A stretch of 64,000 nucleotides of DNA from NCBI GenBank assembly GCA_964291405.2, contig OZ219926.1:2752001-2816000 (forward strand), written 5' to 3'. The position numbers and the translations under genes are program-made. Position 1 is the first letter of the stretch. The number at the start of each line of letters is the position of its first letter. Of this stretch, positions 4,701-59,526 are shown piece by piece. The DNA is from Thermodesulfobacteriota bacterium. GTDB lineage: Bacteria; Desulfobacterota; Binatia; Bin18. Below the pieces are notes generated by a model that saw nothing but the letters and a program-made list of their open reading frames with translations, searched no databases and had not been told where the DNA came from.

Positions 4701-5438
4701 ATGTTTTATCGCGTTAAGCTCAACGTCTTTGAGGGACCGCTCGACTTATTGCTCCATCTCGTCAAGAAGAACGAGGTGGAGTTGCCCGATATCCCTGTTG
4801 CTGAAATTACCGATCAGTATTTAGCCTACCTCGACCTTCTCAAACAGCTCGATCTTGACATCGCAGGAGAATACCTGGTGATGGCGGCGAGCCTGCTCTA
4901 CCTCAAATCGCGTCTCCTGCTGCCTCTTGAGGAAACCCCCGAAGAAGAGGAGGGTGAAGACCCGCGCGCGGAGTTGGCTCGACAACTGCTCGAATACCAA
5001 CGCTTCAAAGAAGCAGCCGAGACGCTGATAGGTCGGGAGATGCTCAACCGCGACGTGTTTATTCGCCCACCCATGCCCGTCGAGCCGGATGGTAAAGACG
5101 ATGTCGTGTATGACTTGTCGCTGGGCGATCTGCTCGATGCTCTGCAGGATGTGATGACACGCGCAGACTCTCAAGAGGCGCATCAGATCATGCTTGAGCA
5201 TGTGTCTTTGCGGGATCGACTGCGTGCGGTGCTTGATACCTTACGGGAAAAAGGAGAGGTGTTCTTCGAGCAGCTTTTTCCCCAGAATTCAACCCGCCTG
5301 CAGGTCCTGGTGACCTTCCTGGCCGTTCTCGAACTGGCCCGCAATAGGATGATCCAGGTGCGCCAAGAGAATCCCTTTGGCCCGATCGTTGCCTCCCTGG
5401 CGGTAAGAGGAAACGTGTCCTCCAATGATGTCGTATAA
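4701..5438 (+). CDS. scpA: segregation/condensation protein A
   Basis: FEGPLDLLLHLV N-terminus, TFLAVLEL C-terminus; synteny with scpB. Confidence 0.95.
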   Translation: MFYRVKLNVFEGPLDLLLHLVKKNEVELPDIPVAEITDQYLAYLDLLKQLDLDIAGEYLVMAASLLYLKSRLLLPLEETPEEEEGEDPRAELARQLLEYQRFKEAAETLIGREMLNRDVFIRPPMPVEPDGKDDVVYDLSLGDLLDALQDVMTRADSQEAHQIMLEHVSLRDRLRAVLDTLREKGEVFFEQLFPQNSTRLQVLVTFLAVLELARNRMIQVRQENPFGPIVASLAVRGNVSSNDVV

Positions 5439-8776: not shown

Positions 8777-10192
8777 CTACTCAACGGCCGGTTTGGTCGC
8801 TTGCCAGGGGCACATCTTCTCGAACGCCGCGGAGGCACGTAGCACCCCGGCATCGTCAAACCGCCGTCCCACAATTTGGAGTCCGACTGGCAAGCCTGCT
8901 TTTGTAAATCCACACGGAATGGACGCCGCCGGATTCCCGGTCAGATTGAAGGGAAACGTAAAGGTGAGCCACTCGTACGGGGAGAGCCGGGTGCCGTTTA
9001 CTGATTTGGCATTGTCGAGCCCGACCGCAAACGGCGGGCAGGGCAGGGTCGGGGTAAGCAGCAGGGTGTATTTCTCAAAAAATTTCTGGACCCCGGTATT
9101 CCAGTCCAGGCGCGCGAACCACGCGTCAATATAGTGGTTGGCTTTCCATTTATGCGTTTTCTCAATCAACTTCACCAGATTGGGATCAATATCCGACCGG
9201 CGCGTTTTGAGCGCTGGCCCCAGCCGGGCAGCAATCCCGCCACAAAACAGACCCTCCCAGGCCGGTTGCGGGTTTGGCCATTTGGGTTTGACGCTTTCGA
9301 CCCGACACCCCAGGTCCCTGAACCGCCGGGCCGCCTTGGCGCACAGGGCTTTGACCTCCGGGTCAAGCGCCTTGGTAGAGCCCAGATCATCGCACCATGC
9401 CACCCGCCAGCCTTCCATTGAGCCCTTGAGAGCTTTGACATAGTCGGTCGTGTCCGCCGGTAGAGAGTACTGGTCGTGCCCGTCCGGTCCTGCCGTGACG
9501 TTCAGCATGAGCGCGGCATCGGCCACCGTCCGCGTCATCGGCCCGACATGCGACAAACTCCAGGCTCCGCTCGGCGGATACACCGGAATCCGGCCAAAGG
9601 ACGGCTTGATCCCATATACCCCGCTGAACGACGAAGGGATACGGATTGAGCCGCCCCCATCCGTTCCTATGGCCAGAGGTCCCAGGCCGGCCGCGATCGC
9701 CGCTCCGGCTCCGCCACTTGAGCCGCCCGGTGTCAAGGCGAGATTCCACGGATTCCGGGTTGGCCCGAACAAGAGATTGTGCGTGACTCCCAGCCAGCCA
9801 AACGTTGGCGTATTTGTCTTGCCGAGCTGAATGCCCCCCGCCGCTTTCATGCGTGCCACCATGGGGGCATCTTCAGTCGGGACGTTGTCGGCGAACAGCG
9901 GTGTCCCAAACGTCGTGCGCACCCCTTTGGTTATCACCAGGTCCTTGGTTGAGAACGGAACGCCGTGGAGCGGACCAAGTGAAGCCGAGCGCTGCATCAG
10001 CATTTTCTCGGCTTTACGCGCGTCGCGCAGCGCGGCTTTGTCCGTCAGGGTGACAAAGGCGTTGAGCCGTGGGTTGAGTTGGTCAATGCGATCGAGTATC
10101 GCTCGCGTGACTTCGACCGGGGAGAGCTGTTTGCGCCGAATCGCTTTCGCCAGTTCGGTTGCGGACAGCCAGCAGATATCGTCCTTTGCCAT
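8777..10192 (-). CDS. amidase signature family protein
   Basis: TKD, GGSSGG and GTDGGGSIRIPS (Ser-cisSer-Lys triad). Confidence 0.93.
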   Translation of the reverse strand: MAKDDICWLSATELAKAIRRKQLSPVEVTRAILDRIDQLNPRLNAFVTLTDKAALRDARKAEKMLMQRSASLGPLHGVPFSTKDLVITKGVRTTFGTPLFADNVPTEDAPMVARMKAAGGIQLGKTNTPTFGWLGVTHNLLFGPTRNPWNLALTPGGSSGGAGAAIAAGLGPLAIGTDGGGSIRIPSSFSGVYGIKPSFGRIPVYPPSGAWSLSHVGPMTRTVADAALMLNVTAGPDGHDQYSLPADTTDYVKALKGSMEGWRVAWCDDLGSTKALDPEVKALCAKAARRFRDLGCRVESVKPKWPNPQPAWEGLFCGGIAARLGPALKTRRSDIDPNLVKLIEKTHKWKANHYIDAWFARLDWNTGVQKFFEKYTLLLTPTLPCPPFAVGLDNAKSVNGTRLSPYEWLTFTFPFNLTGNPAASIPCGFTKAGLPVGLQIVGRRFDDAGVLRASAAFEKMCPWQATKPAVE

Positions 10193-10651
10193 GTTGTTCT
10201 TTCTGCTCACTTTTGTTAGCACTTCACCCTTTTCTAAAAGTGAGGGATTTCAGGGGCTTGGCGAGTTTATTGTGGTTTTTCTTCTTACCTCTCTCAGGCT
10301 TCTGACATATCCTTAATACTACCATTTCATTGTGACACAGGTTTTCTCCGTATTCAAAGGGAAACTCCCTCATAACTCCCCGCTCCCAGGTCCCCCCGCT
10401 GCCCGGAGGCGGCCGCCCCGACGGGCAAGCCACAGCCCGTTCAGAACGCTTGACCGACACGGTGTCTGGCGTTATCTATTGTACTTTTTCTGCGTAACTT
10501 ATTTATATTACACCACTTTTTACTCCTCATATTAGTAGCAAACCCCTCAAGACTAGGGGAACTAGCGGTGCATGACGGTAGCGGACCGTAGACGAGAGGA
10601 AGCCAGTATACCACCAGCAGTCGGTGCCGATACCGAGAGAGGACATACCAC

Positions 10652-11635
10652 GTGCCCCGCAACGACCAAGTCACTCGCCAGTGGTTCTTGATGCAGAAAT
10701 TGGAGCAGTCCCAAGGGGCGACCGTGCAGGAATTGGCCGCCTCCCTGCCCGAAGATTTTTCCTGTCACCCGCGCACCATTCGACGCGACCTCGAAGCCCT
10801 GGAGGCCGCGCATATTCCTCTCGTCACCGAACGCAGCAACGGGCAGACCCGCTGGCGGCTGATGGACGGCTATCGCAAAGTCCTTCCCCTGGCACTCTCG
10901 CCGACCGAACTCATGGCCCTGGTCTTCAGCCGGGATTTACTGCAACCCCTGGAAGGAACGGAACTCAAGGCGTCGCTCGATTCTGCGCTCAACAAGGCCG
11001 CAGCCGCGCTACCAGCAGAGGGCACACGCTATCTTGAGCAACTCCGAAGCCATTTTTCCGTCGGGCTGGGTGCCCACAAGACCTACCGTCAGCATAGACA
11101 GACCATAGACCACCTCCAGCGGGCCATTGCCCAGACGCGCACCGTACAAATGCGCTATTACACGGCCTCGCGCGACCGGACCGGCCGCCGCGAGGTGGAC
11201 CCCTATCACCTGTGGTACGCCGACGGCGGGCTGTATCTGATCGGCCACTGTCACCTGCGCCAGGAGGTGCGCATGTTTGCAGTGGACCGGATTCGTTCCC
11301 TGACCTTGACCAATCGTCCCTGCCAGATGCCGTTCGATTTCGACCTGGACGCTTATGTGAAGGACGCCTTGGTGGTCATGCGCGGAACACCGATTGAGGT
11401 CGAACTGTTGTTCGACAAACCCACCAGCGCCTGGGTGAAAGGCCGGCAGTGGCACCCGAGCCAGCAGACCACGGAACGGAAAGACGGACGCCTGGCCATG
11501 TCGATTCGCGCGGCAGATACGCGCGAGTTGGTTGGCTGGGTGTTGCACTTTGGTAGTGGGGTGCAGGTCATCAGCCCGGAATCCTTCCGAGACAAGGTCC
11601 GCGCAGAAGCCCAAAAAATTTGTGAACAGGAGTGA
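10652..11635 (+). CDS. HTH-WYL(-WCX) transcriptional regulator
   Basis: wHTH RTIRRDLEAL; WYL domain REVDPYHLWYADGGLYLIGHCHLRQEVRMFAVDRI; directly upstream of the cas genes. Confidence 0.92.
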   Translation: MPRNDQVTRQWFLMQKLEQSQGATVQELAASLPEDFSCHPRTIRRDLEALEAAHIPLVTERSNGQTRWRLMDGYRKVLPLALSPTELMALVFSRDLLQPLEGTELKASLDSALNKAAAALPAEGTRYLEQLRSHFSVGLGAHKTYRQHRQTIDHLQRAIAQTRTVQMRYYTASRDRTGRREVDPYHLWYADGGLYLIGHCHLRQEVRMFAVDRIRSLTLTNRPCQMPFDFDLDAYVKDALVVMRGTPIEVELLFDKPTSAWVKGRQWHPSQQTTERKDGRLAMSIRAADTRELVGWVLHFGSGVQVISPESFRDKVRAEAQKICEQE

Positions 11636-11657
11636 CCCCGGATGTCACACCGGTGTG
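11632..11657. promoter_or_regulatory. candidate WYL operator palindromes
   Basis: GTGAC-N7-GTCAC (11632-11648) overlapping the perfect palindrome CACACCGGTGTG (11646-11657). Confidence 0.5.
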
Positions 11658-11701
11658 CTACAGGCAATGCAAATGAACTGACCCAGCGACGGCCCCTGCT
11701 T

Positions 11702-11738
11702 CCCTCTCCCCTGGAGGGAGAGGGCTAGGGTGAGGGGG
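11702..11738. repeat. CCCTCTCCC..GGGAGAGGG..GGGTGAGGG short palindromic repeat
   Basis: Hairpin motif typical of REP-like intergenic repeats. Confidence 0.6.
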
Positions 11739-11764
11739 AAGAGATGGAGAAAGGAACATATCGC

Positions 11765-11890
11765 ATGCCCTCGATTGATTTAGCGTTTCGCCTGACCGGA
11801 TCAGCCCTTCCGGTTGACCACGGCTATGCCTTGTATGCCGCGCTGAGCCGGATTCTGCTCTCAACCTTCAACAAAATATCTGCCTCTTAA
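11765..11890 (+). pseudogene. cas6: truncated Cas6 (Cmx6/I-MYXAN-type) N-terminal fragment
   Basis: MPSIDLAFRLTGSALPVDHGYALYAALSRI then stop after 41 aa; RBS-like AAGGA upstream. Confidence 0.8.
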
Positions 11891-11908
11891 TATAGAAGAA
11901 CCGTTTTT

Positions 11909-12889
11909 ATGGATGATTTCTCTCCGTCTGATCTCAAGACCATTCTCCACTCAAAACGCGCCAATATGTACTACCTTCAACACTGTCGGGTATTGGTCAA
12001 TGGTGGGCGAGTGGAATATGTGACCGATCAGGGTAAACAGTCTCTCTACTGGAATATCCCTATCGCTAATACAACCTCTTTGCTTTTGGGCACGGGCACC
12101 TCAATAACACAAGCAGCAATGCGCGAATTAGCCAAGGCTGGTGTCTTGGTCGGGTTTTGCGGCGGCGGCGGCTCGCCTCTATTTGCGGCAAATGAAGTTG
12201 AAGTGGATGTGTCTTGGCTGAGTCCACAGAGCGAATATCGGCCTACGGAGTATTTACAGCACTGGGTCAGTTTCTGGTTTGACGAAGACAGCCGCGTTGC
12301 CGCTGCAAAAGCGTTCCAACACGTGCGTTTTGAACAGATTAGAAAACATTGGCTGGATTCGACAATGCAACGGGAAAGCGCGTTTGATCTCAGCGCCGCT
12401 GCTCTCACCACTATTCTTGATACGACACAAGAATCATTGGAATTGTGTCAAACAACCAATGCCATTCTTTCGCTAGAAGCCCAGATTACCAAGCATCTAT
12501 ACAGACTTGCAGTCAACGCTGTTGGCTATGGAGAGTTTGTCCGTGCGAAACGGGGCTCAGGCTCCGACTTGGCGAACCGATATCTTGACCACGGGAATTA
12601 TCTCGCTTACGGACTGGCGGCCACTGCGGCCTGGGTGCTTGGCCTGCCTCATGGTCTCGCGGTACTGCACGGAAAGACCAGGCGGGGAGGGCTGGTCTTT
12701 GATATCGCCGACCTAGTGAAAGACGCTCTGATCCTCCCGCAAGCCTTCATTTCGGCAATGGCCGGTCAGGATGAACAAGAATTTCGTCAAGCCTGCCTCC
12801 ACCGATTCAATCAAGCCGAAGCCCTGGACACCATGATAGACACCATCAAGTCTGTTGCGATTGAGTTCAGCAAAGTCCCACGACCATGA
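11909..12889 (+). CDS. cas1: type I-F CRISPR-associated endonuclease Cas1f
   Basis: SDLKTILHSKRAN, YWNIPIANTT, HGKTRRGGLVFD. Confidence 0.97.
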   Translation: MDDFSPSDLKTILHSKRANMYYLQHCRVLVNGGRVEYVTDQGKQSLYWNIPIANTTSLLLGTGTSITQAAMRELAKAGVLVGFCGGGGSPLFAANEVEVDVSWLSPQSEYRPTEYLQHWVSFWFDEDSRVAAAKAFQHVRFEQIRKHWLDSTMQRESAFDLSAAALTTILDTTQESLELCQTTNAILSLEAQITKHLYRLAVNAVGYGEFVRAKRGSGSDLANRYLDHGNYLAYGLAATAAWVLGLPHGLAVLHGKTRRGGLVFDIADLVKDALILPQAFISAMAGQDEQEFRQACLHRFNQAEALDTMIDTIKSVAIEFSKVPRP

Positions 12890-15800
12890 ATATCTTGCTT
12901 ATCTCTCAGTGCAATAAAAGAGCCCTGGTTGAAACTAGGCGCGTTCTGGATCAATTTGCAGAACGCAAAGGTGAGCGTACCTGGCAAACAGCAATCACAC
13001 TTCAAGGTTTGCAGACACTCCGCAAGATGCTGAAAAAATCAGCGCGGAGAAATACCGCCGTGGCCTGTCACAGAATCGGCGGCAAGAATTACAGCGAATT
13101 GCTGTGGGTGGTCGGCAACGCCAACAAGTTCAATATCGAAGGCACGATCCCGACCAATTTCACCCGGCGCGACGTGTTGAAGGCCGACGACGAGAACCAA
13201 TGGTACACGGCAACGATTATTGCCCTTCTCTCGGCACTAGCAGCCTTGTTTCACGACTTTGGGAAAGCCAATGTCCTGTTCCAGGACAAGCTGAAAAAAG
13301 GAAAGCGTGCCACGGAGCCATATCGCCACGAATGGGTCAGTCTCCGCATGTTTGAGGCGTTTGTTCGCGGCGAGCCAGACGAACAATGGCTGCAACGGTT
13401 AGCCAACGTTTCGAGCAGTGATGAACAGAGCCTCTTAGACCGCCTCAAAGCAATACAGGACCACCCCGATACAGTAATAGATTCGCCGTTCAAGTCTCTG
13501 AAACCCCTCGCGCAAGCGGTCGGCTGGCTTATCCTGACGCACCACAAACTTCCACAGACTCCGAAAGAGGAAAAAGGACGACTCAAGCACATTGCCTATT
13601 TCCTCAGCCGCCACCTTCAACCCGATTGGAACTCGTCTCGGGAAAGATGGGTGAAGGGCGAACGGAAAGAGTGGGCCGGCGCAGACGAAGAAGTCGGTCA
13701 GGTTTGGACTTTCCCAGACGGAACACCGTTAAGAAGTAGTACTTGGTGCAAGAAAGCCCGGAACATCGCCCAACGATTGGCGCAACCCGGCATTTTTGAT
13801 TCGTCTGATTCGTCCTGGGACAACGATTTTGTTATGCACGTTGCCCGCATGACCCTCATGCTGGCGGACCACTATTACTCGTCGCAGGACCGCGATCCAA
13901 GGTACGGGGATGATGGTTACAAGGTCTACGCCAACACTGACAAGGACGGCAATCGGAAACAACAGCTTGATGAGCACCTTGTCGGTGTCTACAAGCACAG
14001 CTTACGGATTATGAGAATCCTCCCTGGGCTGAGAAACACCTTACCGGCACTCGGACGACATGCGGCCTTCAAGAAACGGACACGAGACAGCCGGTTTCTC
14101 TGGCAGAATAAAGCCTACGAATTGGCATGTTCTCTGAAGGACAAGGCACAAGAGGGTGGTTTTTTCGGGGTAAACATGGCGTCAACCGGGTGTGGCAAAA
14201 CGTTTGCCAACGCACGCATCATGTATGCCTTGGCTGACGAGAAACGTGGCTGCCGGTTCAGTGTTGCCTTGGGTTTACGAACCCTGACACTACAGACCGG
14301 CGATGCTTTCCGGCAAAGAATGCTGCTAGACGAAGATGATATGGCAGTGATGATTGGCTCTGCCGCGGTCCGCAAGCTCCATGAAGATCAAGTGGCGGAA
14401 AAGGAAAAAGAGGAACAGGAAAAACCGGACAGGTTCACCGGATCGGAATCCGCCGAGGCGTTAGATGACGACTATTACATCATCTATGACGAGGCGCTTG
14501 CAGATACCGCGCTCAAGCGTTGGCTCAAAGCCTCGCCAAAGGCAGACCGTATGGTCGGTGCGCCTATCTTGGTCAGCACGATTGACCATCTTATGCCAGC
14601 AACGGAAGGCACGCGCGGCGGCCGGCAGATTGCTCCCATGCTCCGCCTGCTGACCTCAGACTTGGTGATAGACGAGCCGGACGATTTCAGTCTTGATGAC
14701 CTCAAGGCACTGACCCGTTTGGTCCATTGGGCCGGAATGCTGGGCAGCAAGGTCGTGCTCTCTTCCGCAACGCTTTCTCCTGCTCTCCTGACCGGACTCT
14801 TCCAGGCATATCATATTGGACGGACCGTCTATAACAAAAATTGTGGAAACCCGAACCAGGAAACTATCTACTGCGCGTGGTTTGACGAGAAAAAGGCAGA
14901 GCCCGCAGCCATTGCCAATGTCGAAGAGTTTCGTGCCAATGTGGAGAAGTTTCGTCAACAGCACAGTACTTTTACGAAGGATCGAGCGGCAGAGCTCGCA
15001 ACTGGACATCCGAAACGAAAAGCAGAAATCGTGTCGTTGACCGGCTCTGTACTGACGCCGCAGGACGCTGTGAATGTAATGAGTGAAAAGATTCTCGAAG
15101 GCATACACCGACTGCACAGCGACCACAGCCAAGAAGACCCAAAGACCAAGAAAAGAATCAGTGTTGGTCTGGTCCGCATGGCGAACATCAACCCGCTTGT
15201 ATCCGTCGCACAGCGTTTGCTGGAAAAGGAGCCCCCGGCTGATACAACTGTCCACTATTGCGTGTACCATAGTCGGTTTCCCTTGATCGTGCGATCCGAA
15301 ATCGAGCGCATTCTTGATACGGTCCTGACTCGAAAGGACGGCAAAGAACTCTGGCAGTCCTCCGTTATCCAAGAAGCAATCGCACGCGCCGCTACCACAA
15401 ATCATATCTTTGTCGTGATAGCCTCTCCCGTAGCCGAGATCGGACGCGATCATGACTATGATTGGGCAGTTGTCGAACCGAGTTCTATGCGGTCTCTCGT
15501 CCAAATAGGCGGACGGGTCTTACGTCACAGGGACCGGCTACCAGAAACGGTGAACATGCTCTTGTTGAGTAAAAACTATAGGGGTTTGACAGGCAAACGG
15601 CCCGCGTTCTGTCGCCCCGGTTTCGAGTCCGACGACAGGCGACTTACCCGCTATGACTTGGCCGACCTTCTCTGCGAGGACCAATACACCGTGATTGATT
15701 CCCGACCCTGCATCGTCCCGAGAGAGAATTTCGACCCAACACAAAACCTGGCGGACATGGAACATCGGGAAACCGATCTTGCCTTCTCCAGCCCTGACCA

Positions 15801-16206
15801 AAGCGACCCATATGCCTCGCAGTGGATCAAATCACGCGCCACGCTGACCGGGGAGCTTCAGAAGCGGACGCCGTTTCGGAAGTCTGCCAAAGAAGACGAC
15901 TATTTCCTGCACCTAGGAGAAGGCGATGAGGAACCCACAGTCAGAAAATGGCACGGAGACGGACCGTACAAAGAAGCCAAAGACTGTGATGAGATTAACC
16001 TGACCGAACTGTCTATAGATTCTGGCAACAGAATATGGGGGCACGTTGCTTACTCGGACGCACTGAACCGGCTGGCACAGAAGGAAGGCAAGGACGTAGA
16101 AGAACTTGGCAAGACCTACGGGACGTTTTCCTTGCGGCCTGCACGGATTGGCTGGCCTTGGCAATATACCCCAAAAATCGGTTTTTATGAGCCGATGAAA
16201 AAATGA
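12886..16206 (+). CDS. cas3: type I-F Cas2-3 fusion helicase/nuclease
   Basis: Cas2 N-terminus MNILLISQCNKRAL, HDFGK HD motif, STGCGKT, DEPD, QIGGRVLRHR. Confidence 0.97.
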   Translation: MNILLISQCNKRALVETRRVLDQFAERKGERTWQTAITLQGLQTLRKMLKKSARRNTAVACHRIGGKNYSELLWVVGNANKFNIEGTIPTNFTRRDVLKADDENQWYTATIIALLSALAALFHDFGKANVLFQDKLKKGKRATEPYRHEWVSLRMFEAFVRGEPDEQWLQRLANVSSSDEQSLLDRLKAIQDHPDTVIDSPFKSLKPLAQAVGWLILTHHKLPQTPKEEKGRLKHIAYFLSRHLQPDWNSSRERWVKGERKEWAGADEEVGQVWTFPDGTPLRSSTWCKKARNIAQRLAQPGIFDSSDSSWDNDFVMHVARMTLMLADHYYSSQDRDPRYGDDGYKVYANTDKDGNRKQQLDEHLVGVYKHSLRIMRILPGLRNTLPALGRHAAFKKRTRDSRFLWQNKAYELACSLKDKAQEGGFFGVNMASTGCGKTFANARIMYALADEKRGCRFSVALGLRTLTLQTGDAFRQRMLLDEDDMAVMIGSAAVRKLHEDQVAEKEKEEQEKPDRFTGSESAEALDDDYYIIYDEALADTALKRWLKASPKADRMVGAPILVSTIDHLMPATEGTRGGRQIAPMLRLLTSDLVIDEPDDFSLDDLKALTRLVHWAGMLGSKVVLSSATLSPALLTGLFQAYHIGRTVYNKNCGNPNQETIYCAWFDEKKAEPAAIANVEEFRANVEKFRQQHSTFTKDRAAELATGHPKRKAEIVSLTGSVLTPQDAVNVMSEKILEGIHRLHSDHSQEDPKTKKRISVGLVRMANINPLVSVAQRLLEKEPPADTTVHYCVYHSRFPLIVRSEIERILDTVLTRKDGKELWQSSVIQEAIARAATTNHIFVVIASPVAEIGRDHDYDWAVVEPSSMRSLVQIGGRVLRHRDRLPETVNMLLLSKNYRGLTGKRPAFCRPGFESDDRRLTRYDLADLLCEDQYTVIDSRPCIVPRENFDPTQNLADMEHRETDLAFSSPDQSDPYASQWIKSRATLTGELQKRTPFRKSAKEDDYFLHLGEGDEEPTVRKWHGDGPYKEAKDCDEINLTELSIDSGNRIWGHVAYSDALNRLAQKEGKDVEELGKTYGTFSLRPARIGWPWQYTPKIGFYEPMKK

Positions 16207-16258
16207 CGGTTTGCTTCGTATCGGCCAGTAAGATGGCAGGAACGAAGCTAACGGACCA

Positions 16259-16286
16259 ATTCACTACCGCACGGGTAGCTAAGAAA
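16259..16286 (+). CRISPR. solitary diverged type I-F repeat in the cas3-csy1 intergenic region
   Basis: ATTCACTACCGCACGGGTAGCTAAGAAA matches the array repeat at 23/28; stem CTACC/GGTAG carries a compensatory G-C to A-T change; CTAAGAAA handle intact. Confidence 0.85.
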
Positions 16287-16321
16287 TATCTATCGATATT
16301 TATACTTTTAGAGGAGATTTC

Positions 16322-17602
16322 GTGATGCCAAACACACAACAGAACGGGCTTACTGCTCGAATCCTGGAATACGTCCAGCAACGAGAAGCCGAGGAACTGA
16401 AGAACGTCAAGGACGATGCCAAACGACTGAAAATCGCGGCCAAGTACGAACCTCAAACCTGGCTGAGCGAGAAAGCCCGTACAGCAAAAAGCGTCGCTGC
16501 CTCCTCTTGGCAGTCATTCTCCGATGTCACGCATGTGGCGAAGTTTGTCCACGGCGGCGCAGAGGCGAGTAGCGTTTCCACAACGGGAGCGAAAGAAACT
16601 GACGGCTATATTTCCACGCCCAGTGTTGCAATGCTCACCTACGATACCGCCTGCAATGCTGCTGCCCTCCCTATTAAGCCTTTCTTGCTTCTCGAACATG
16701 ACGGTCGGACACTGATTGATGCCTTGCGACAAGGGGACGTGTCTCCGCTCTTGGAGATTGCTCCAGATGAAACAACGGCGCAGGAGTGGGCAAGCGCGTT
16801 TATCTCGGCTTTTGAGGCAAAGGAACCCGACGCACACATGATCAAACAGTGCTATTGGCCGGTCCCCAGCGATGGGTATCATCTCCAGATTCCGCTTTAC
16901 CCTACGTCATTCGCGCAGGCGATTTATGCGTCTATTCAACGCGCAAAATTCTCCGGCGAGGCCAAAGCAACCCGGAAAGCCCGCAGCGATGAACAGGAAT
17001 CCGACCGAGAAGATGTCCGCTATCCAAACCTTGCCATTCAGAGCTTTGGCGGCTCTAACAAACAGAACATCAGCCAACTGAACAGCCCGCGTGGTGGCAA
17101 AGCCTACTTGTTCTCATGCGCGCCACCAACCTGGAAACGACGGAACGCTCCGCCTCTGCACATCTCCTCCGTTTTTCCCTCTTGCTTTGAACGCCAAGTC
17201 CGGTCCCGACATATCAAGCCGCTACAGGAGTTCCTGTACAGCGTTCGAGACAAGGACACTAACGCCAGAATCAGAAAACACCGCGAGGGACGGGTGGATG
17301 CCCTGATAGATGTCATTCTGAGTCAGGCGGCTGACATTCAACAGATGCAACCGGGATGGAGCGCTGACCCTGACTGCCGGTTGCCGCTTGCGGAGCAGTA
17401 TTGGTTAGACCCTGAAAGAGCGGAGACGGATGAGGGTTTTCGGTCCGAACGAGACGCGGCTGACTGGCAAACCGAGGTCGCCAACACCTTTGCTATCTGG
17501 CTCAGTCGCAAACTGGAGCGTAACGGGCTTGCTTTCGGTGCCGATGAACAACATGCACTACGCAGCGATTGGCGTAATCGCATGAGGGAGGGGATTGTAT
17601 GA
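16322..17602 (+). CDS. csy1: type I-F Cas8f (Csy1)
   Basis: THVAKFVH, KQCYWPV, FGGSNKQNISQLNS, WLDP. Confidence 0.93.
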   Translation: MMPNTQQNGLTARILEYVQQREAEELKNVKDDAKRLKIAAKYEPQTWLSEKARTAKSVAASSWQSFSDVTHVAKFVHGGAEASSVSTTGAKETDGYISTPSVAMLTYDTACNAAALPIKPFLLLEHDGRTLIDALRQGDVSPLLEIAPDETTAQEWASAFISAFEAKEPDAHMIKQCYWPVPSDGYHLQIPLYPTSFAQAIYASIQRAKFSGEAKATRKARSDEQESDREDVRYPNLAIQSFGGSNKQNISQLNSPRGGKAYLFSCAPPTWKRRNAPPLHISSVFPSCFERQVRSRHIKPLQEFLYSVRDKDTNARIRKHREGRVDALIDVILSQAADIQQMQPGWSADPDCRLPLAEQYWLDPERAETDEGFRSERDAADWQTEVANTFAIWLSRKLERNGLAFGADEQHALRSDWRNRMREGIV

Positions 17603-18531
17603 TGGACCATGATTTTGTTGTTGTTTTGAGGCATCTGGAAGTCCACGGGGCCAACGCCATTACTGGCGCGACCTATGGGTTTCCCGCAATAACGCATTTC
17701 CTGGGCCACGCGCACGCCTTGCAACGCAAGCTGTCGGAAGAGTTTGCTCTGACCTTTGACGGCTGCGGGGTTGTTTGTCACCGGCATCATGTCCACGCGC
17801 ACAGACCTCCTGGCGGCCTTGGCTTCACCGATTTCGGTTTCGCTCTGAGCCGCAATCCTCTTGATAAAAAGGGCCAGTCACCGTCGTTTGTCGAAGAGGG
17901 CAAGATGAATATGGAGGTGACGCTGCTCATAGCCGTAACGGAAGGAAACCAACCAATCGGTCCGGTAGAGCAGGAGAAACTAAAAAAAGATTTGTTGAAC
18001 CAGTCAACCCGACAACGCTTGGCCGGTGGAGTTATTACCAACACGCCGGAAATTGAAATCATCCAGAGCGAGGCTTTTGAAGAGGGCCGGAAGAAAATCC
18101 TACGAGACCTCCTGCCGGGATTTGCGTTAGTGAGTCGGCACGATTTGCTGCTGGCCGAGCAGGACCGACAACGCAAGGCTGGCGTTCAAGACCCGGAACT
18201 CGCCGCCTGGATGTCGTTTTCGACGATACGGTACGCCGCCGATACAAACCAAACACAGAACGGCAAAACTCCGTGGCTGTTGGTGGAAAAACCGGCGACC
18301 GGGTGGATCACGCCTCTTGCCGTAGGCTATCGGCGCATCTCCCCACTGTACGGCCCTGGAAAGGTCAAGAATGTCCGCGACCCGACTGTACCGGCCTGTT
18401 TTGTGGAAAACCTGTATTCCCTCGGGCAGTGGATCAGTCCGCACAGAATCACAGACACGGACCATTTGTTCTGGCAGCAGGAATACGACGGTACAGGGCG
18501 GTATCTCTGCCGCAATTCGTATGAACCATAA
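17599..18531 (+). CDS. csy2: type I-F Cas5f (Csy2)
   Basis: [48 protein letters not shown]. Confidence 0.95.
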
Positions 18532-18619
18532 AGAGGGAGATGGTGATGTAGACATAGAAGGTTCGTGCGGAAAGAGGGCCGATTTCACAAACCGAAAGTA
18601 CAAAGAAAGGACCATCACT

Positions 18620-19642
18620 ATGACAACGCAGGTAAAAACAGCATCAGTCCTGGCGTTCGAGCGGAAACTGGCGAACTCCGACGGCCTGATGTACTCAGGC
18701 AAATGGGAGAATCGAGACAATGCGGAATCCTGGTCGCCACTGACGGTCCACGAGAAAGCAGTACGGGGTACTATCTCAAACCGCCCGAAGACCAAAGGCG
18801 ATTCAGACCCTTTGAAACTGAACGAGAAAATCGAGAACCCGAATCCCCAGACGGTCGATGTGGCCATGCTGCCGCACGATCACGACACGGTGATACTCGC
18901 GTTTACGCTTCGAGTGCTCTCAGACCTGGATGTCCCATCTGCGTGTAATGACGCGGACTACCAAGAGGCGTTGGGGACAACGATCAATACCTATATCGCC
19001 AAGCACGGTTTTGCCGAATTGTCTCAGCGCTATGCCACGAATATAGCCAATGGGCGCTTCCTGTGGCGGAATCGTGTCGGCGCTGAAACCGTTACGGTAC
19101 GTGTGACCCGGTATCAGGGGCAGGAAGTCGTAGCCAGATGGGACTTTGAGAGCGGCCGTATATCCTTGCGGGATTTCGGTACTACGGACGTGGACGTGTC
19201 TGCACTCGCAGCCGCTATTGAAGCCGGTCTGAAAGGGGAGGCGTTTACGTTTCTCAAGATAGAAGGCTTTGCCCGTCTCGGCGAGGGACAGGAGGTGTTT
19301 CCCTCTCAGGAACTCATTTTAGACCGAGACAATGCCGGGAAGAGCAAAACGCTCTATGAAATTGGGGGTGTGGCGGGATTGCATTCTCAAAAAATCGGCA
19401 ACGCGCTGAGAACAATAGACACCTGGTATCCCGAAGCAGACCAATTTGGCCCCATATCGGTTGAACCGTTTGGCTCCGTCACCAATCGTGGCAAGGCATA
19501 CCGCCAGCCCAAAGACAAGCTGGATTTCTATACCCTCCTCGATAATTGGGTCTTAAAAGGAAAGACCCCCGAAGTGGAACAGCAACATTACGTTATGGCC
19601 GTGTTGGTTCGGGGCGGTGTTTTTGGAGAAAAGTCAGAGTGA
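18620..19642 (+). CDS. csy3: type I-F Cas7f (Csy3)
   Basis: [41 protein letters not shown]. Confidence 0.96.
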
Positions 19643-19651
19643 GGTAGGAGC

Positions 19652-20203
19652 ATGGACCATTACGTTGATATCCAGGTGCTTCCCGACCCGGAGTTTCTGG
19701 AGACCACGCTCATGAATGAACTGTTCTCCAAATTGCACCGGGCGCTGGGGAAACACGGGCAGGGCAAAATAGGAGTGAGTTTTCCCAAGCACGGCAAAAC
19801 CCTTGGACCGCGAATTCGTCTACATGGCAGCAAAGGGGCGCTTGAGGAATTCATGCAAACGCAGTGGATAGCGGGCATGACGGATTATTGTCGTGTCAGC
19901 GCTGTTTGCCCTGTCCCCCCTCAGACTTCATTCTGTACGGTCAGGCGAGTCCAAGCGAAGAGTGCATACAACAAACGGAACCGCTCGGTGGCGAAGGGCT
20001 GGTTGGATGAATCTGAAGCGCAGAAGCGTATTCCCGATTCTCAACAGAGAATGCTTGATCTGCCATACGCTCAACTCCGCAGTTTATCGAATGGAAATAT
20101 GATGCGCGTTTATATTGAGCATAGTAAGCCGATCCAACAATCCGTCGCAGGGTCATTTTCCGCCTATGGTCTCAGCAGCACTGCTACCGTCCCCTGGTTT
20201 TGA
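19652..20203 (+). CDS. csy4: type I-F Cas6f (Csy4) crRNA endoribonuclease
   Basis: MDHYVDI..PDPEF, catalytic His in KLHRAL, YGLSSTATVPWF. Confidence 0.96.
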   Translation: MDHYVDIQVLPDPEFLETTLMNELFSKLHRALGKHGQGKIGVSFPKHGKTLGPRIRLHGSKGALEEFMQTQWIAGMTDYCRVSAVCPVPPQTSFCTVRRVQAKSAYNKRNRSVAKGWLDESEAQKRIPDSQQRMLDLPYAQLRSLSNGNMMRVYIEHSKPIQQSVAGSFSAYGLSSTATVPWF

Positions 20204-20332
20204 CCCTTTTTTCCTGGTTATCCATAACCCTTTGATTTACTTGTATATTTTTTAGGGGTTCGTATTAAGGTAAAGTCGTCACGTTTTACCCGAACTCCTT
20301 GAGAATCAAAGGCTTACACATCTGTGTCTTCA
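20204..20332 (+). promoter_or_regulatory. CRISPR leader with two IHF consensus sites
   Basis: AT-rich; WATCAANNNNTTR matches at 20225-20237 (minus) and 20304-20316 (plus). Confidence 0.8.
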
Positions 20333-21861
20333 GTTCACTGCCGTACAGGCAGCTAAGAAATACACGCTTGATCTCTTTGCCGGTGATTCTGCGTTCACTG
20401 CCGTACAGGCAGCTAAGAAAAGCTAGAGCTAGACGTACAACTGTTGAACCCCGTTCACTGCCGTACAGGCAGCTAAGAAAACCCAGATATGCCGGGCTGT
20501 GGGGTGTGCTGGGTTCACTGCCGTACAGGCAGCTAAGAAAACCCTGGATTCCGTAGCGGCGGGAGACATGGTGTTCACTGCCGTACAGGCAGCTAAGAAA
20601 AGTTGCCTGGCATTTTTGCCGGGGCAGACTATGTTCACTGCCGTACAGGCAGCTAAGAAAACCGTGGAGTGCCGCGCCGTGACCCTGACCGTGTTCACTG
20701 CCGTACAGGCAGCTAAGAAAGCCATATGGTAACCCAGAAGCTGGCCGATGCCGTTCACTGCCGTACAGGCAGCTAAGAAAAGCTTGATCCTCACCGTTCC
20801 CCCTGTCTTAACGTTCACTGCCGTACAGGCAGCTAAGAAAAAATCGTCGGGGACGTAGCGCCTGGACCAAGTGTTCACTGCCGTACAGGCAGCTAAGAAA
20901 TGAAAGCTGCTCAACTCCTGAACCTCCCGACCGTTCACTGCCGTACAGGCAGCTAAGAAATATCGTTGATTGGTGATTCAATGGTCGATTTTGTTCACTG
21001 CCGTACAGGCAGCTAAGAAAAAGCGGAATTCCCAGATGGCCGAGGCGATACGGGTTCACTGCCGTACAGGCAGCTAAGAAAGCTCAGCCTAGAGGAGGAA
21101 GAGCCGATGAAAGGTTCACTGCCGTACAGGCAGCTAAGAAAACCAGCGGCTGACGAAACCCGAACTGCTGGATGTTCACTGCCGTACAGGCAGCTAAGAA
21201 ATTCGCGAAGTCATGTCGAACGACCTGGAGGGCGTTCACTGCCGTACAGGCAGCTAAGAAATATTGGGGGTCGCCATACTTCTATTTATGTTCGTTCACT
21301 GCCGTACAGGCAGCTAAGAAAACCGGGCTTGTCGTGCAGAACGAGGCCGGGACGTTCACTGCCGTACAGGCAGCTAAGAAATCCTCTGCTGTTGGGCATC
21401 CACTATGGATATTGTTCACTGCCGTACAGGCAGCTAAGAAAGTCTGCCTCTGATTACCCGCATTCGGCACTCAGTTCACTGCCGTACAGGCAGCTAAGAA
21501 AAACAAAAGCGAGCAAGACGACACGATGCACACGTTCACTGCCGTACAGGCAGCTAAGAAATATCGACTGGCGCGGCGGGTCAACCAGCTCGTGTTCACT
21601 GCCGTACAGGCAGCTAAGAAAAAGAGCATCAAGTCGGTCCGCTATCCAGTCGCGTTCACTGCCGTACAGGCAGCTAAGAAATTGATGTCGCCGAAGACCG
21701 TAGAGTACTGTCCGTTCACTGCCGTACAGGCAGCTAAGAAAAACGCGACTACGCCCGCAGCGAGCACGGCAAGGTTCACTGCCGTACAGGCAGCTAAGAA
21801 AAGCGAAAGCAGGTGGTTGAGCGCTGTATTGAAGTTCACTGCCGTACAGGCAGCTAAGAAA
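20333..21861 (+). CRISPR. type I-F array: 26 repeats GTTCACTGCCGTACAGGCAGCTAAGAAA, 25 spacers (32 nt, one 33 nt)
   Basis: Exact 28-nt repeats at 60-nt period with a one-base shift after repeat 12. Confidence 0.99.
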
Positions 21862-21905
21862 CTGGAAAATCAAGGACTTATCCAAGAAACCCTGGTGCCC
21901 GGTTT

Positions 21906-21984
21906 GTCACCCCTGTGAAAACAGGGACAGGAATCCAGGCTATCCGCCTACGTCCTCTGGATGCCGGATCACGTCCGACATGAC
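21906..21984. repeat. composite palindromic repeat (GTCACCCCTGTGAAAACAGGG / CTGGATGCCGGATCACGTCCGACATGAC)
   Basis: Modules recur at 23491-23586 and 49546-49723. Confidence 0.75.
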
Positions 21985-22038
21985 GAGAGCGGAGCGGCAG
22001 GGCGACAGCTTGGCGTGAAATGCTCTTATTGAGCGAAA

Positions 22039-59173: not shown

Positions 59174-59434
59174 ATGCCTGGACTCGTTCGCCTGCTGCTC
59201 CTGCTTGCAGTGGGCTACCTGATTATTGCGGGTATTCGTCGTCTCTTCTTGCCCGCTACTTCCGACCCAACGAAGCGGCAGGCAAACGCTTCGGGTCCAG
59301 AGAGCGTGCCCTTAGTCCAGGACCCCCAGTGCGGGCGTTTTATTCCGCAGAACGAAGCAATTCAGGTCTCGCGGCGTGGCCGGACCGTCTACTTCTGTAG
59401 TCAGGAGTGTCGCGCCGCGTATCGGGCGGCATGA
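59174..59434 (+). CDS. small membrane-anchored TRASH/YHS domain protein
   Basis: TM helix followed by DPQCG...YFCSQEC. Confidence 0.8.
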   Translation: MPGLVRLLLLLAVGYLIIAGIRRLFLPATSDPTKRQANASGPESVPLVQDPQCGRFIPQNEAIQVSRRGRTVYFCSQECRAAYRAA

Positions 59435-59526
59435 GTGTATAGGGTCTTTAGAGTGTATAGGGTCTTTGGAGTCTTTAGAGTCAAGACTCAATGACTCAAC
59501 AGACCCAACGACCCAACAGACTCAAC
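59434..59526. repeat. degenerate short (about 9-mer) tandem/inverted repeat tract
   Basis: (GAGTGTATAGGGTCTTT)x2 followed by GACTCAA/GACCCAA units. Confidence 0.65.

What the first reader, a model, noticed from the sequence alone, without database searches (positions are those of the whole stretch)
16207..16321. Solitary Cas6f-cleavable repeat plus long hairpin in the csy1 5' region: candidate RNA-based cas autoregulation
Seen: a 28-nt I-F repeat (16259-16286, 23/28 identical to the array repeat) lies 35 nt upstream of the csy1 start. Its stem is preserved by a compensatory G-C to A-T pair and the 8-nt handle CTAAGAAA is intact, which suggests selection on RNA structure. Upstream, 16209-16235 is a weaker repeat-like match (about 17/28), separated by 23 nt; this stretch also folds as GTTTGCTTCGT...ACGAAGCTAAC. 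Known: CreA/CreR-type crRNA-like RNAs and solitary repeat units regulate cas promoters or titrate Cascade. Inference: either a mini-array giving a short regulatory guide, or a Csy4 cut site in the cas3-csy polycistronic mRNA giving direct feedback on Cascade synthesis. I found no convincing CC-PAM target in the window.
Basis: partly seen in the sequence, partly recalled or inferred. Interest (0 to 1): 0.8.

Follow-up and report, generated by a model that had tools for sequence, protein, structure and literature searches.

The report
Leftover CRISPR repeat before csy1
A single worn copy of the CRISPR repeat sits between two genes of this bacterium's type I-F CRISPR system; it is most likely what remains of a small self-regulating mini-array, a kind of element already described in such systems.

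Summary
16259-16286 is a real type I-F repeat copy (psiR). It matches the array repeat at 23 of 28 positions, keeps all five stem pairs through one compensatory G-C to A-T change, and has an intact 8-nt handle. It is the only such copy in the window.

The upstream hairpin (16208-16257) is also real (z -4.5).

Neither candidate guide has a CC-flanked target, although the same scan found a target in 9 of 9 control mini-arrays from other loci.

Related Binatia-type I-F loci carry a sense-strand repeat at the same junction:
- L087 still has a full two-repeat mini-array. Its 20-nt pseudo-spacer matches a CC-flanked site at the cas2-3 stop, with mismatches only at positions 6 and 12.
- L002 and L003 keep only a copy with a broken stem.

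My reading is that psiR is a vestige of a sense-strand CreR-type mini-array that has lost its guide function. It may still be bound or cut by Cas6f within the cas transcript. However, its loop G15 replaces an A that is invariant in 63 of 63 related array repeats, so this is uncertain.

Repeat-like elements at the cas3-cas8f junction of I-F1 loci are already published. Interest is modest.

The parts
16259..16286 (+). psiR: degenerate single type I-F CRISPR repeat (23/28 to the array repeat)
   Evidence: Rfam CRISPR-DR4 32.2 bits, E 3.7e-5.
16264..16278 (+). Cas6f-type hairpin of psiR: stem 16264-16268 / 16274-16278, loop 16269-16273. The predicted Cas6f cut would fall between 16278 and 16279.
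   Evidence: MFE -6.7 kcal/mol with the same shape as the array repeat. The hairpin also forms when the whole spacer is folded. The cut position is inferred from the known Cas6f cut 8 nt before the repeat end (review PMC5965381, passages).
16279..16286 (+). Intact 8-nt crRNA 5' handle
   Evidence: 8/8 identical to the array repeat.
16208..16257 (+). Long imperfect hairpin directly after the cas2-3 stop codon. Function unknown.
   Evidence: -21.8 kcal/mol, z -4.46. Unique in the genome. Not scored as terminator-like.
16209..16235 (+). Possible, badly decayed upstream repeat (psiR1). Weak.
   Evidence: 19 identities with 3 indels. Local-alignment null 6%. Not found by Rfam at E up to 10.
16236..16258 (+). 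Possible 23-nt pseudo-spacer between psiR1 and psiR. No usable target.
   Evidence: It pairs with 16209-16219 to form the long hairpin.
16287..16324 (+). AT-rich csy1 leader with Shine-Dalgarno AGAGGAG at 16310-16316. As a guide it has no CC-flanked target.
   Evidence: The hairpin predicted here is not better than shuffles (z +0.43).
12886..16206 (+). cas2-3 (Cas3f)
   Evidence: TIGR02562, 1219 bits.
16325..17602 (+). csy1 (cas8f). The ATG start gives the 425-aa protein held in the database; a GTG lies at 16322.
   Evidence: TIGR02564. P0001 100% identical, 425 aa.
19652..20203 (+). cas6f/csy4, the endoribonuclease expected to recognise psiR
   Evidence: TIGR02563. Alignment to P. aeruginosa Csy4 chains keeps His29 and the Arg/Gln pair.
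20333..21861 (+). CRISPR array, 26 identical repeats

Best explanation
psiR is a single surviving repeat of a small sense-strand regulatory mini-array that once sat between cas2-3 and csy1. Mini-arrays of this kind (called CreR or 'mini-array') make a crRNA-like RNA that guides Cascade to a partly matching site near the cas8f promoter and so represses Cascade synthesis.

In this genome the guide part has decayed:
- the upstream repeat is almost gone;
- neither flanking sequence has a PAM-flanked target.

What remains is the hairpin plus the handle. No promoter-like or terminator-like signal was found in the 115-nt spacer, so psiR is probably transcribed as part of the cas1-cas2-3-csy mRNA. Its most likely remaining activity is to be bound, and perhaps cut after 16278, by Cas6f. 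Cutting would separate the cas1-cas2-3 part, which would keep Cas6f on its 3' hairpin, from a csy1-4 part that begins with the crRNA handle.

Shown here: the identity of the element, its conservation of position and strand in related loci, and the absence of a target.
Inferred: transcription context, Cas6f binding or cutting, and any effect on expression.

My odds:
- about 0.85 that it is a vestige of, or relative of, a sense-strand mini-array;
- about 0.45 that Cas6f still acts on it;
- about 0.25 that this action is a selected regulatory function.
For: 1. Real repeat, not chance. 5 mismatches, with the next best match in the window at 10. There is only one other non-array hit in 4.95 Mb. Rfam CRISPR-DR4 gives E 3.7e-5.

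2. The pattern of change looks constrained. All 5 stem pairs and 8/8 handle positions are kept despite 5 substitutions. In simulations, 5 random substitutions kept both in only 0.5-2.4% of 400,000 trials per model (this is a post hoc test).

3. Same place and strand in relatives, although the flanking coding DNA is only about 60% identical to the window. Of 78 I-F loci with enough upstream sequence, 4 have a plus-strand repeat copy just before csy1: the window, L002, L003 and L087. All four belong to the window's Csy1 clade. A further 21 loci have the published minus-strand type and 53 have none.

4. L087 keeps the full design. It has a repeat with 1 mismatch, a 20-nt pseudo-spacer, then a repeat with 4 mismatches that ends 11 nt before the csy1 ATG. 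The pseudo-spacer has a CC-flanked match on the other strand across the cas2-3 stop. All of its first 14 positions match except 6 and 12, which is the type I-F signature. By my arithmetic the chance expectation in that 12.5-kb locus is about 1e-4.

5. The window's psiR scores the same as L087's distal repeat in Rfam (32.2 vs 32.4 bits). The broken-stem copies in L002 and L003 score 16.9 and 17.6.

6. A contig in a sponge-metagenome run, about 90% identical to the flanks, also has a piece that lies on 16261-16287. Its spacer is about 70 nt longer.

7. Cas6f competence is plausible.
- C6-G20 and U7-A19 are kept.
- The A8-U18 variant also occurs in the hairpin-keeping distal repeats of L046 and L068.
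- The window's Cas6f keeps His29 and the Arg/Gln pair that align with P. aeruginosa Arg102/Gln104. H29A is the inactive mutant according to PMC13478208. The roles of Arg102 and Gln104 are recalled from memory.
- No promoter-like or terminator-like site lies in 16000-16500.
Against: Loop position 15 is G in psiR. It is A in 63 of 63 array repeats of related loci. By my reading of the rows, it is also A in 25 of 25 minus-strand pseudo-repeats that keep their hairpin. Positions 8 and 18 are likewise invariant (G, C) in those 63 arrays. So psiR departs from every working repeat at three invariant positions, and Cas6f may bind it poorly.

Its Rfam score is below the curated threshold (32.2 < 35).

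The relatives L002 and L003 keep the copy with a broken stem (3 of 5 pairs), and L001 and G008 keep only a trace. The hairpin is therefore dispensable in the clade.

The homology of psiR to L087's first or second repeat cannot be resolved.

There is no expression data: no RNA run holds the stretch. The promoter scan uses an E. coli-type consensus that may not fit this phylum, so a csy promoter downstream of psiR (TATACT at 16301-16306) is not excluded.
Confidence: 0.5

Rival explanations
1. Inert relic. psiR is a decaying repeat with no present activity. Cas6f no longer recognises it, or recognises it without any consequence. The intact stem and handle reflect past selection or luck.
For: G15 replaces an A that is invariant in 63 of 63 related arrays. 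No target was found. The sister loci L002 and L003 carry plainly dead copies, and L001 and G008 only traces. The Rfam score is below threshold. Shmakov et al. treat scattered standalone repeats as sporadic (PMC10120712, section 22).
Against: Stem plus handle survive 5 substitutions, which random change achieves in 0.5-2.4% of trials. The element is still recognisable although flanking coding DNA is only about 60% identical between lineages. Its score equals that of the distal repeat of the apparently working L087 mini-array.
Confidence: 0.33
2. Active crRNA-like guide (CreR/CreA type). psiR1, the 23-nt pseudo-spacer and psiR (or psiR plus the downstream leader) yield a small RNA that guides Cascade to a DNA target and represses transcription.
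For: The geometry fits. The 23-nt spacer lies within the 23-27 nt typical of bacterial I-F CreA/CreR (bioRxiv 10.1101/2024.10.29.618823, passages). L087 shows the clade uses this design. The pseudo-spacer is complementary to the DNA just after the cas2-3 stop, which is where the L087 target lies. A CC precedes one register of that site, with 9 of 12 scored positions matching.
Against: In that register, seed positions 2 and 3 mismatch. With the handle-defined registers, no CC-flanked site in 10001-22000 runs beyond 6 positions, and the genome-wide best runs of 10-13 are about what chance gives. The same scan found a nearby target in 9 of 9 control mini-arrays. psiR1 has no stem, so Cas6f could not create the 5' handle, and its own handle is degenerate.
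Confidence: 0.07
3. Handle-led messenger. Cas6f cuts at 16278/16279, leaving the csy mRNA starting with the crRNA 5' handle. Cas5f/Cas8f bind that handle and Cas7f polymerises over the next ~32 nt, which cover the Shine-Dalgarno. Excess free Cascade subunits would then shut off their own translation without any DNA target.
For: The handle is 8/8. The 32 nt that follow (16287-16318) span the SD at 16310-16316 and end 3-6 nt before the start codon. In a minimal I-F system, Cas6f release of the 5' tag is proposed to start Cas5-Cas7 assembly, with Cas6f on the 3' hairpin acting as the roadblock (PMC4937334, discussion passages). No such roadblock lies downstream here. A solitary I-F repeat RNA can nucleate long Cas7f filaments (PMC10651486, passages). 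L002 and L003 keep the handle (8/8 and 7/8) directly against the SD although their stems are broken.
Against: This is pure inference from geometry. L002 and L003 lack the hairpin needed to create a free handle, and their handle may be kept only because it overlaps the SD. The G15 problem applies here too. No published natural case was found in searches.
Confidence: 0.08
4. Transcript-end element. The long hairpin, with or without psiR, marks and stabilises the 3' end of a cas1-cas2-3 transcript, and csy1-4 has its own promoter in the AT-rich stretch 16287-16310. psiR would then not be part of the csy mRNA.
For: The hairpin is strong and placed right after the stop codon. I-F1 loci often have a separate Cascade promoter between cas3 and csy1 (PMC10120712, section 23 passages). 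A -10-like TATACT lies at 16301-16306 in an 80%-AT stretch of a 58%-GC genome.
Against: No U-tract follows the hairpin, and the scans find no terminator-like or promoter-like site. A start about 7 nt after TATACT would leave a leader of roughly 10 nt. No usable -35 is present by my reading.
Confidence: 0.1

Closest known systems
Repeat-like sequences, single repeat units and mini-arrays in the cas3-cas8f intergenic region of type I-F1 loci (Shmakov et al. 2023, PMC10120712; abstract, section 22 and found passages read)
   Same: Same system subtype and same junction (cas3 to cas8f/csy1). It is a degenerate copy of the cognate repeat. The paper notes both two-repeat mini-arrays, whose short spacers partly match a PAM-flanked site near the cas8 promoter with position-6 mismatches, and many isolated single repeat units that may be mini-arrays with a lost second repeat. 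L087 fits the mini-array description and the window fits the single-unit description.
   Different: The paper's worked I-E and I-F1 examples are transcribed opposite to cas3 and sit in long (>200 bp) spacers with the target downstream. Here, and in L087, L002 and L003, the copy is on the sense strand, within 7-38 nt of the csy1 start, and the L087 target lies upstream at the cas2-3 stop. The window's spacer is only 115 nt. Their supplementary locus lists, which I could not open, may already contain sense-strand cases.
CreR / CreA crRNA-like regulators, including I-F CreTA in Acinetobacter (PMC10097628, passages; bioRxiv 10.1101/2023.03.10.532045, abstract only; bioRxiv 10.1101/2024.10.29.618823, passages)
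   Same: Two degenerate repeats around a 20-27 nt pseudo-spacer in the cas3-csy1 spacer, with a partial match to a CC-flanked target. L087 has all of this. The window has the position and one good repeat.
   Different: The window has no target and no convincing second repeat. No divergent toxin mini-ORF was looked for or seen. CreA in Acinetobacter lies in a ~400-bp spacer and is oriented divergently from creT.
Racr: viral solitary repeat units that mimic I-F repeats (PMC10651486, abstract and passages)
   Same: A lone repeat with a Cas6f hairpin. The RNA upstream of the cut binds Cas6f and seeds Cas7f filaments.
   Different: Racrs sit on phages and plasmids behind their own promoter and act against the host. 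This copy is chromosomal, inside the cas operon, with no promoter-like site before it. A strong hairpin 6 nt upstream of its first base would limit any Cas7f filament.
Engineered Csy4/Cas6f hairpins in operons and leaders (Qi et al. 2012, seen only in a reference list and otherwise recalled; MORTISE, PMC13478208, passages)
   Same: A Cas6f hairpin placed between cistrons or near an RBS changes expression through cleavage or through tight binding (about 50 pM, with Cas6f staying on its product).
   Different: Those are synthetic constructs using the exact P. aeruginosa hairpin. This would be a natural, degenerate site whose cleavage is unproven.

Membership tests
Type I-F CRISPR repeat (Rfam CRISPR-DR4, RF01317) | Matches the covariance model at or above the curated gathering score | tested here: not met
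   32.2 bits against a gathering score of 35, E 3.7e-5. Array repeats score 47.5.
Type I-F CRISPR repeat (Rfam CRISPR-DR4, RF01317) | 5-bp stem, 5-nt loop and 8-nt 3' handle | tested here: met
   5/5 pairs and 8/8 handle positions.
Type I-F CRISPR repeat (Rfam CRISPR-DR4, RF01317) | Invariant loop ends G11 and A15 and the G8-C18 pair | tested here: not met
   psiR has G15 and A8-T18. Among related array repeats, 63 of 63 have A15 and G8-C18.
Type I-F CRISPR repeat (Rfam CRISPR-DR4, RF01317) | Member of a regularly spaced array | tested here: not met
   It is solitary. The nearest array repeat is 4 kb away.
CreR/CreA-type regulatory mini-array | Two repeat-like sequences flanking a short pseudo-spacer | tested here: inconclusive
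   psiR is solid. The upstream copy 16209-16235 is marginal (local-alignment null 6%) and has no stem.
CreR/CreA-type regulatory mini-array | Pseudo-spacer partly complementary to a PAM-flanked target near a cas or toxin promoter | tested here: not met
   No CC-flanked seed match in 10001-22000 and none above chance in the genome. The feature is met in 9 of 9 control loci and in L087.
CreR/CreA-type regulatory mini-array | Located in an intergenic region of the cognate cas locus | tested here: met
   It lies in the cas2-3/csy1 spacer.
CreR/CreA-type regulatory mini-array | Processed into a small Cascade-bound RNA that represses transcription | not testable with these tools
   No RNA run holds the stretch.
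Solitary repeat unit of Racr type | Single repeat similar to the cognate array repeat | tested here: met
   23/28.
Solitary repeat unit of Racr type | Carried by a mobile element, behind its own promoter, away from cas genes | tested here: not met
   It lies inside the cas operon, and no promoter-like site was found in 16000-16500.
Cas6f (Csy4) substrate | Stem with C6-G20 and U7-A19 at its base, and G before the scissile bond | tested here: met
   Read from the sequence. The need for G next to the cut is stated in review PMC5965381.
Cas6f (Csy4) substrate | A cognate, apparently active Cas6f is encoded | tested here: met
   TIGR02563 182.6 bits. His29 and the Arg/Gln pair align with P. aeruginosa Csy4.
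Cas6f (Csy4) substrate | Actually bound and cleaved | not testable with these tools
   This needs an in vitro cleavage assay or 5'-end mapping.

The most novel reading that the evidence does not exclude
psiR is a natural Cas6f cut site that gives the csy1-4 messenger a crRNA 5' handle. Free Cas8f/Cas5f and Cas7f then assemble on their own mRNA leader as on a pseudo-crRNA, covering the 32 nt that hold the ribosome-binding site. Cascade would thereby throttle its own translation whenever subunits outnumber crRNAs. This would be target-free, RNA-level feedback, distinct from the DNA-targeting CreR circuits.
Probability: 0.08. Interest if true: 0.75.

Novelty: new member of a known kind. Interest (0 to 1): 0.35.

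Why it matters
If psiR is only a relic, its value is as a dated fossil. It shows that a Binatia lineage of type I-F systems carried its self-regulating mini-array on the sense strand, inside the leader of the Cascade operon. This layout is not among the published worked examples. In it, guide and effector come from one transcript (L087). The lineages lose it piecemeal: full in L087, hairpin plus handle in the window, handle only in L002 and L003, and a trace in L001 and G008.

If Cas6f still cuts it, this would be a natural counterpart of the engineered Csy4 insulators, uncoupling the amounts of Cas1/Cas2-3 from those of Cascade.

Tried and rejected
- The genome search with an IUPAC pattern of the repeat on the window's own genome returned 0 matches, although the window holds 27. 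I disregarded it and scanned the laid genome in Python instead.
- RNA evidence: no RNA holder is listed for 15800-16900. The one read-laying run used DNA contigs only.
- Closer relatives: Csy1 proteins 80%, 65% and 61% identical exist (P0002-P0004), but their DNA could not be fetched.
  - The genome-contig scan's best hit was 57%.
  - The metagenome scan gave one locus.
  - The order-level search covered 56 genomes and the phylum-level search 401; they added only a broken csy1 locus and distant ones.
- The hairpin predicted just downstream of psiR (16279-16312) is no better than shuffles (z +0.43), so I dropped it.
- Hairpins in the relatives' spacers are not significant.
- The first gapped-alignment attempt used a deprecated setting and gave a meaningless global alignment. 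I redid it.
- The primary Csy4 papers (Haurwitz 2010 and 2012, Sternberg 2012) are not held. Statements about Arg102, Gln104 and the loop are therefore recalled or taken from a review.
- I found no paper describing a natural Cas6f site in a cas mRNA with searches. Supplements were closed and I did not open any.
I rebuilt the table from the stored loci instead.

Full report
WHAT IS THERE

The window carries a complete type I-F1 locus on the + strand. Every gene scores above its NCBIfam cut-off:
- cas1 11909-12889
- cas2-3 12886-16206
- csy1 16322/16325-17602
- csy2 17599-18531
- csy3, ending at 19642
- cas6f 19652-20203

The array follows, with 26 identical 28-nt repeats at 20333-21861. All the gene junctions I read are tight: cas1/cas2-3 and csy1/csy2 overlap, and csy3/cas6f are 9 nt apart. 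The exception is the junction between the cas2-3 stop (16204-16206) and csy1, which is 115 nt to the GTG at 16322 and 118 nt to the ATG at 16325. The ATG gives the 425-aa protein found in the database.

16259-16286 differs from the array repeat at positions 1, 8, 12, 15 and 18. Positions 8 and 18 are partners in the stem and change together (G-C to A-T). All five pairs survive and the 8-nt handle is untouched.
- The next best match to the repeat anywhere in the 64 kb, on either strand, has 10 mismatches.
- In the whole 4.95-Mb assembly, the only other non-array hit at 7 mismatches or fewer is a 1-mismatch copy 167 kb away.
- Rfam's CRISPR-DR4 model picks out exactly 16259-16286 at 32.2 bits (E 3.7e-5). 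This is just below its gathering score of 35. The array repeats score 47.5.
- The hairpin forms both when psiR is folded alone and when the whole spacer is folded.

The upstream hairpin is also real. 16205-16258 folds at -21.8 kcal/mol with z -4.46, and it is not a dispersed repeat.

It needs three indels to reach 19 identities. A local alignment is matched by 6% of random window segments. It has no stem, and Rfam does not see it.

IT IS NOT A WORKING DNA-TARGETING GUIDE

I scanned for CC-flanked protospacers, allowing every sixth position to mismatch. Two candidate guides were used: 16236-16258 (between the two copies) and 16287-16318 (after the handle).
- Within 10001-22000 the best seed run is 6.
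- Genome-wide the best runs of 10-13 are about what 9.9 million positions give by chance.
- Dropping the PAM requirement adds only the element's own palindromes.

The scan does work. In nine other loci that carry the published kind of mini-array, it found a nearby CC-flanked partial target in 9 of 9.

WHAT THE RELATIVES SHOW

I compared the window, 80 loci from species-representative genomes and one metagenome locus. Of these 82 loci, 78 have at least 700 nt upstream of csy1. Each was scanned against its own array repeat at 8 mismatches or fewer:
- 21 carry minus-strand copies 100-500 nt upstream. This is the published arrangement.
- 53 carry none.
- 4 carry plus-strand copies right before csy1: the window, L002, L003 and L087.

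These four are the window's nearest Csy1 relatives (52-59% identity; Binatia MAGs by record title). Their flanking coding DNA is only about 60% identical to the window, so unconstrained spacer sequence should be unrecognisable between them.

L087 is the key locus. After the cas2-3 stop there are:
- two badly decayed repeats at 60-nt spacing;
- a repeat with 1 mismatch (5231-5258);
- a 20-nt pseudo-spacer;
- a repeat with 4 mismatches (5279-5306, stem intact, handle 6/8) that ends 11 nt before the csy1 ATG.

The pseudo-spacer has a CC-flanked match on the opposite strand that spans the cas2-3 stop codon. All of its first 14 positions are identical except 6 and 12. That is the hallmark of type I-F guide-target pairing noted by Shmakov et al. 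(PMC10120712, section 22). My arithmetic puts the chance expectation in that locus near 1e-4. L087 is therefore a sense-strand version of the known autoregulatory mini-array, sitting in the leader of the operon it would regulate.

The other relatives are more worn:
- L002 and L003 have a 44-nt spacer that is almost entirely one repeat copy. Its handle (8/8 and 7/8) runs into the Shine-Dalgarno. Its stem is broken (3 of 5 pairs; no hairpin folds; Rfam 16.9 and 17.6 bits).
- L001 and G008 keep only a trace.
- A contig in a sponge-metagenome run, about 90% identical to the window's flanks, also has a 27-nt piece lying on 16261-16287. Its spacer is about 70 nt longer. At the 80% threshold any I-F repeat would lie there, so this shows only that a repeat sits at the junction in that closer relative as well.

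READING

The simplest account is descent from a sense-strand mini-array at this junction, lost piecemeal in different lineages. The window keeps hairpin plus handle but has lost guide and target.

The pattern of change in psiR argues that it was under constraint for much of its history. Five random substitutions preserve both stem and handle in only 0.5-2.4% of simulations (this test was chosen after seeing the data). Among the minus-strand pseudo-repeats of other loci, 24 of 25 keep all five pairs despite 3-8 mismatches. So an intact stem is the mark of copies that still work with Cas6f. The A8-U18 variant recurs in the distal copies of L046 and L068.

No promoter-like or terminator-like site is found in 16000-16500. 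If the spacer is transcribed with the operon, which is an inference, Cas6f would meet this hairpin.
- Cas6f binds substrate and product at about 50 pM and stays on the product (PMC13478208).
- It cuts 8 nt before the repeat end, next to a G (PMC5965381).
- The window's Cas6f keeps His29 and the residues that align with P. aeruginosa Arg102 and Gln104 (the roles of Arg102 and Gln104 are recalled from memory).

Cutting would split the operon transcript. The cas1-cas2-3 part would end in the long hairpin plus a Cas6f-capped hairpin. The csy part would begin with the crRNA handle.

AGAINST THIS READING

Position 15, the last loop base, is G in psiR. It is A in 63 of 63 array repeats of related loci, and A in all 25 minus-strand pseudo-repeats by my reading. 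Positions 8 and 18 are also invariant in those arrays. I could not read the primary Csy4 specificity papers, so I cannot say how much a G15 costs. It is the main reason I put Cas6f action at about even odds. The inert-relic rival is close behind. The long hairpin remains unexplained by any reading. It may be a 3'-end stabiliser or the residue of old guide-target complementarity.

COMPARISON WITH WHAT IS KNOWN

Shmakov et al. report repeat-like sequences in 40% and mini-arrays in 15% of 1,145 I-F1 loci. They find a peak next to cas3, many isolated single repeat units, and experimental repression by a P. aeruginosa mini-array (PMC10120712). CreTA modules occupy the cas3-csy1 spacer in Acinetobacter (PMC10097628). 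Bacterial I-F CreA/CreR pseudo-spacers are typically 23-27 nt (bioRxiv 10.1101/2024.10.29.618823). The window's element is a new member of this kind.

Two things differ from the published worked examples: the sense orientation, and the position hard against the csy1 ribosome-binding site. Their supplementary lists, which I could not see, may already include such cases.

THE BOLDEST READING NOT EXCLUDED

After the cut, the csy messenger would start with a perfect handle. The next 32 nt, the length of a spacer, cover the Shine-Dalgarno and stop 3-6 nt before the start codon. Work on a minimal I-F system proposes that release of the 5' tag starts Cas5-Cas7 assembly, which runs until it meets Cas6f on the 3' hairpin (PMC4937334). 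A viral solitary repeat seeds long Cas7f filaments (PMC10651486). Cascade subunits might thus coat their own leader and block translation. This rests on geometry alone, and I give it about 8%.

VERDICT

The element belongs to a known kind, is probably vestigial, and has a testable residual activity.

Noticed in passing
L087:5110-5317 and L087:5029-5050: This metagenome locus has a sense-strand decayed array plus a two-repeat mini-array ending 11 nt before csy1. Its 20-nt pseudo-spacer matches a CC-flanked site across the cas2-3 stop, with mismatches only at positions 6 and 12 of the first 14. A minus-strand promoter-like site (5081-5052) lies just upstream of that target. I did not examine whether a small toxin-like gene follows.
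   Followed up: partly
window 10652-11635 (+): The gene directly upstream of cas1 encodes an HTH-WYL-WCX protein (Pfam WYL 80.7 bits, WCX 65.1 bits). From memory, WYL proteins are known CRISPR-linked regulators, so this may be a protein regulator of the locus.
   Followed up: no
window 11744-11890 (+): A 48-aa ORF between the WYL gene and cas1 matches residues 1-31 of type I-MYXAN Cas6/Cmx6 (TIGR02807, E 4.6e-8, far below cut-off because it is a fragment). It looks like a stump of an older, different CRISPR-Cas system replaced by the I-F locus.
   Followed up: partly
outside the window: G000:C3:2935024-2935451 (= L091 about 9025-9452), minus strand: An orphan composite array. It has about five copies of a 36-nt repeat of another type, then one unit of a third repeat type ending in ATTGAAAC, then a 26-nt spacer and a single I-F repeat with 1 mismatch. 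Among the 10 large ORFs I scanned within about 9 kb there are no cas genes; they include ccm genes, a decarboxylase and a TonB receptor.
   Followed up: partly
window 20244-20262 and 16301-16322: The CRISPR leader and the csy1 leader share a similar AT-rich motif: TATAYTTTT, then AGRGG, and a little further on TTCG. This could be a common promoter or start-site element, or it could be chance in AT-rich DNA.
   Followed up: no
L002:5963-5990 and window 16259-16286: Both plus-strand copies carry the same unusual A15-to-G loop change, while L003 keeps A. This could be shared ancestry or coincidence.
   Followed up: no
window 59433-59531: Short tandem repeats of periods 18/9 and 17/8 lie side by side.
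   Followed up: no
G008 (L085/L086): This same-genus genome has a csy1 interrupted by an internal deletion or frame break and one TAG. Its I-F locus appears to be decaying.
   Followed up: no
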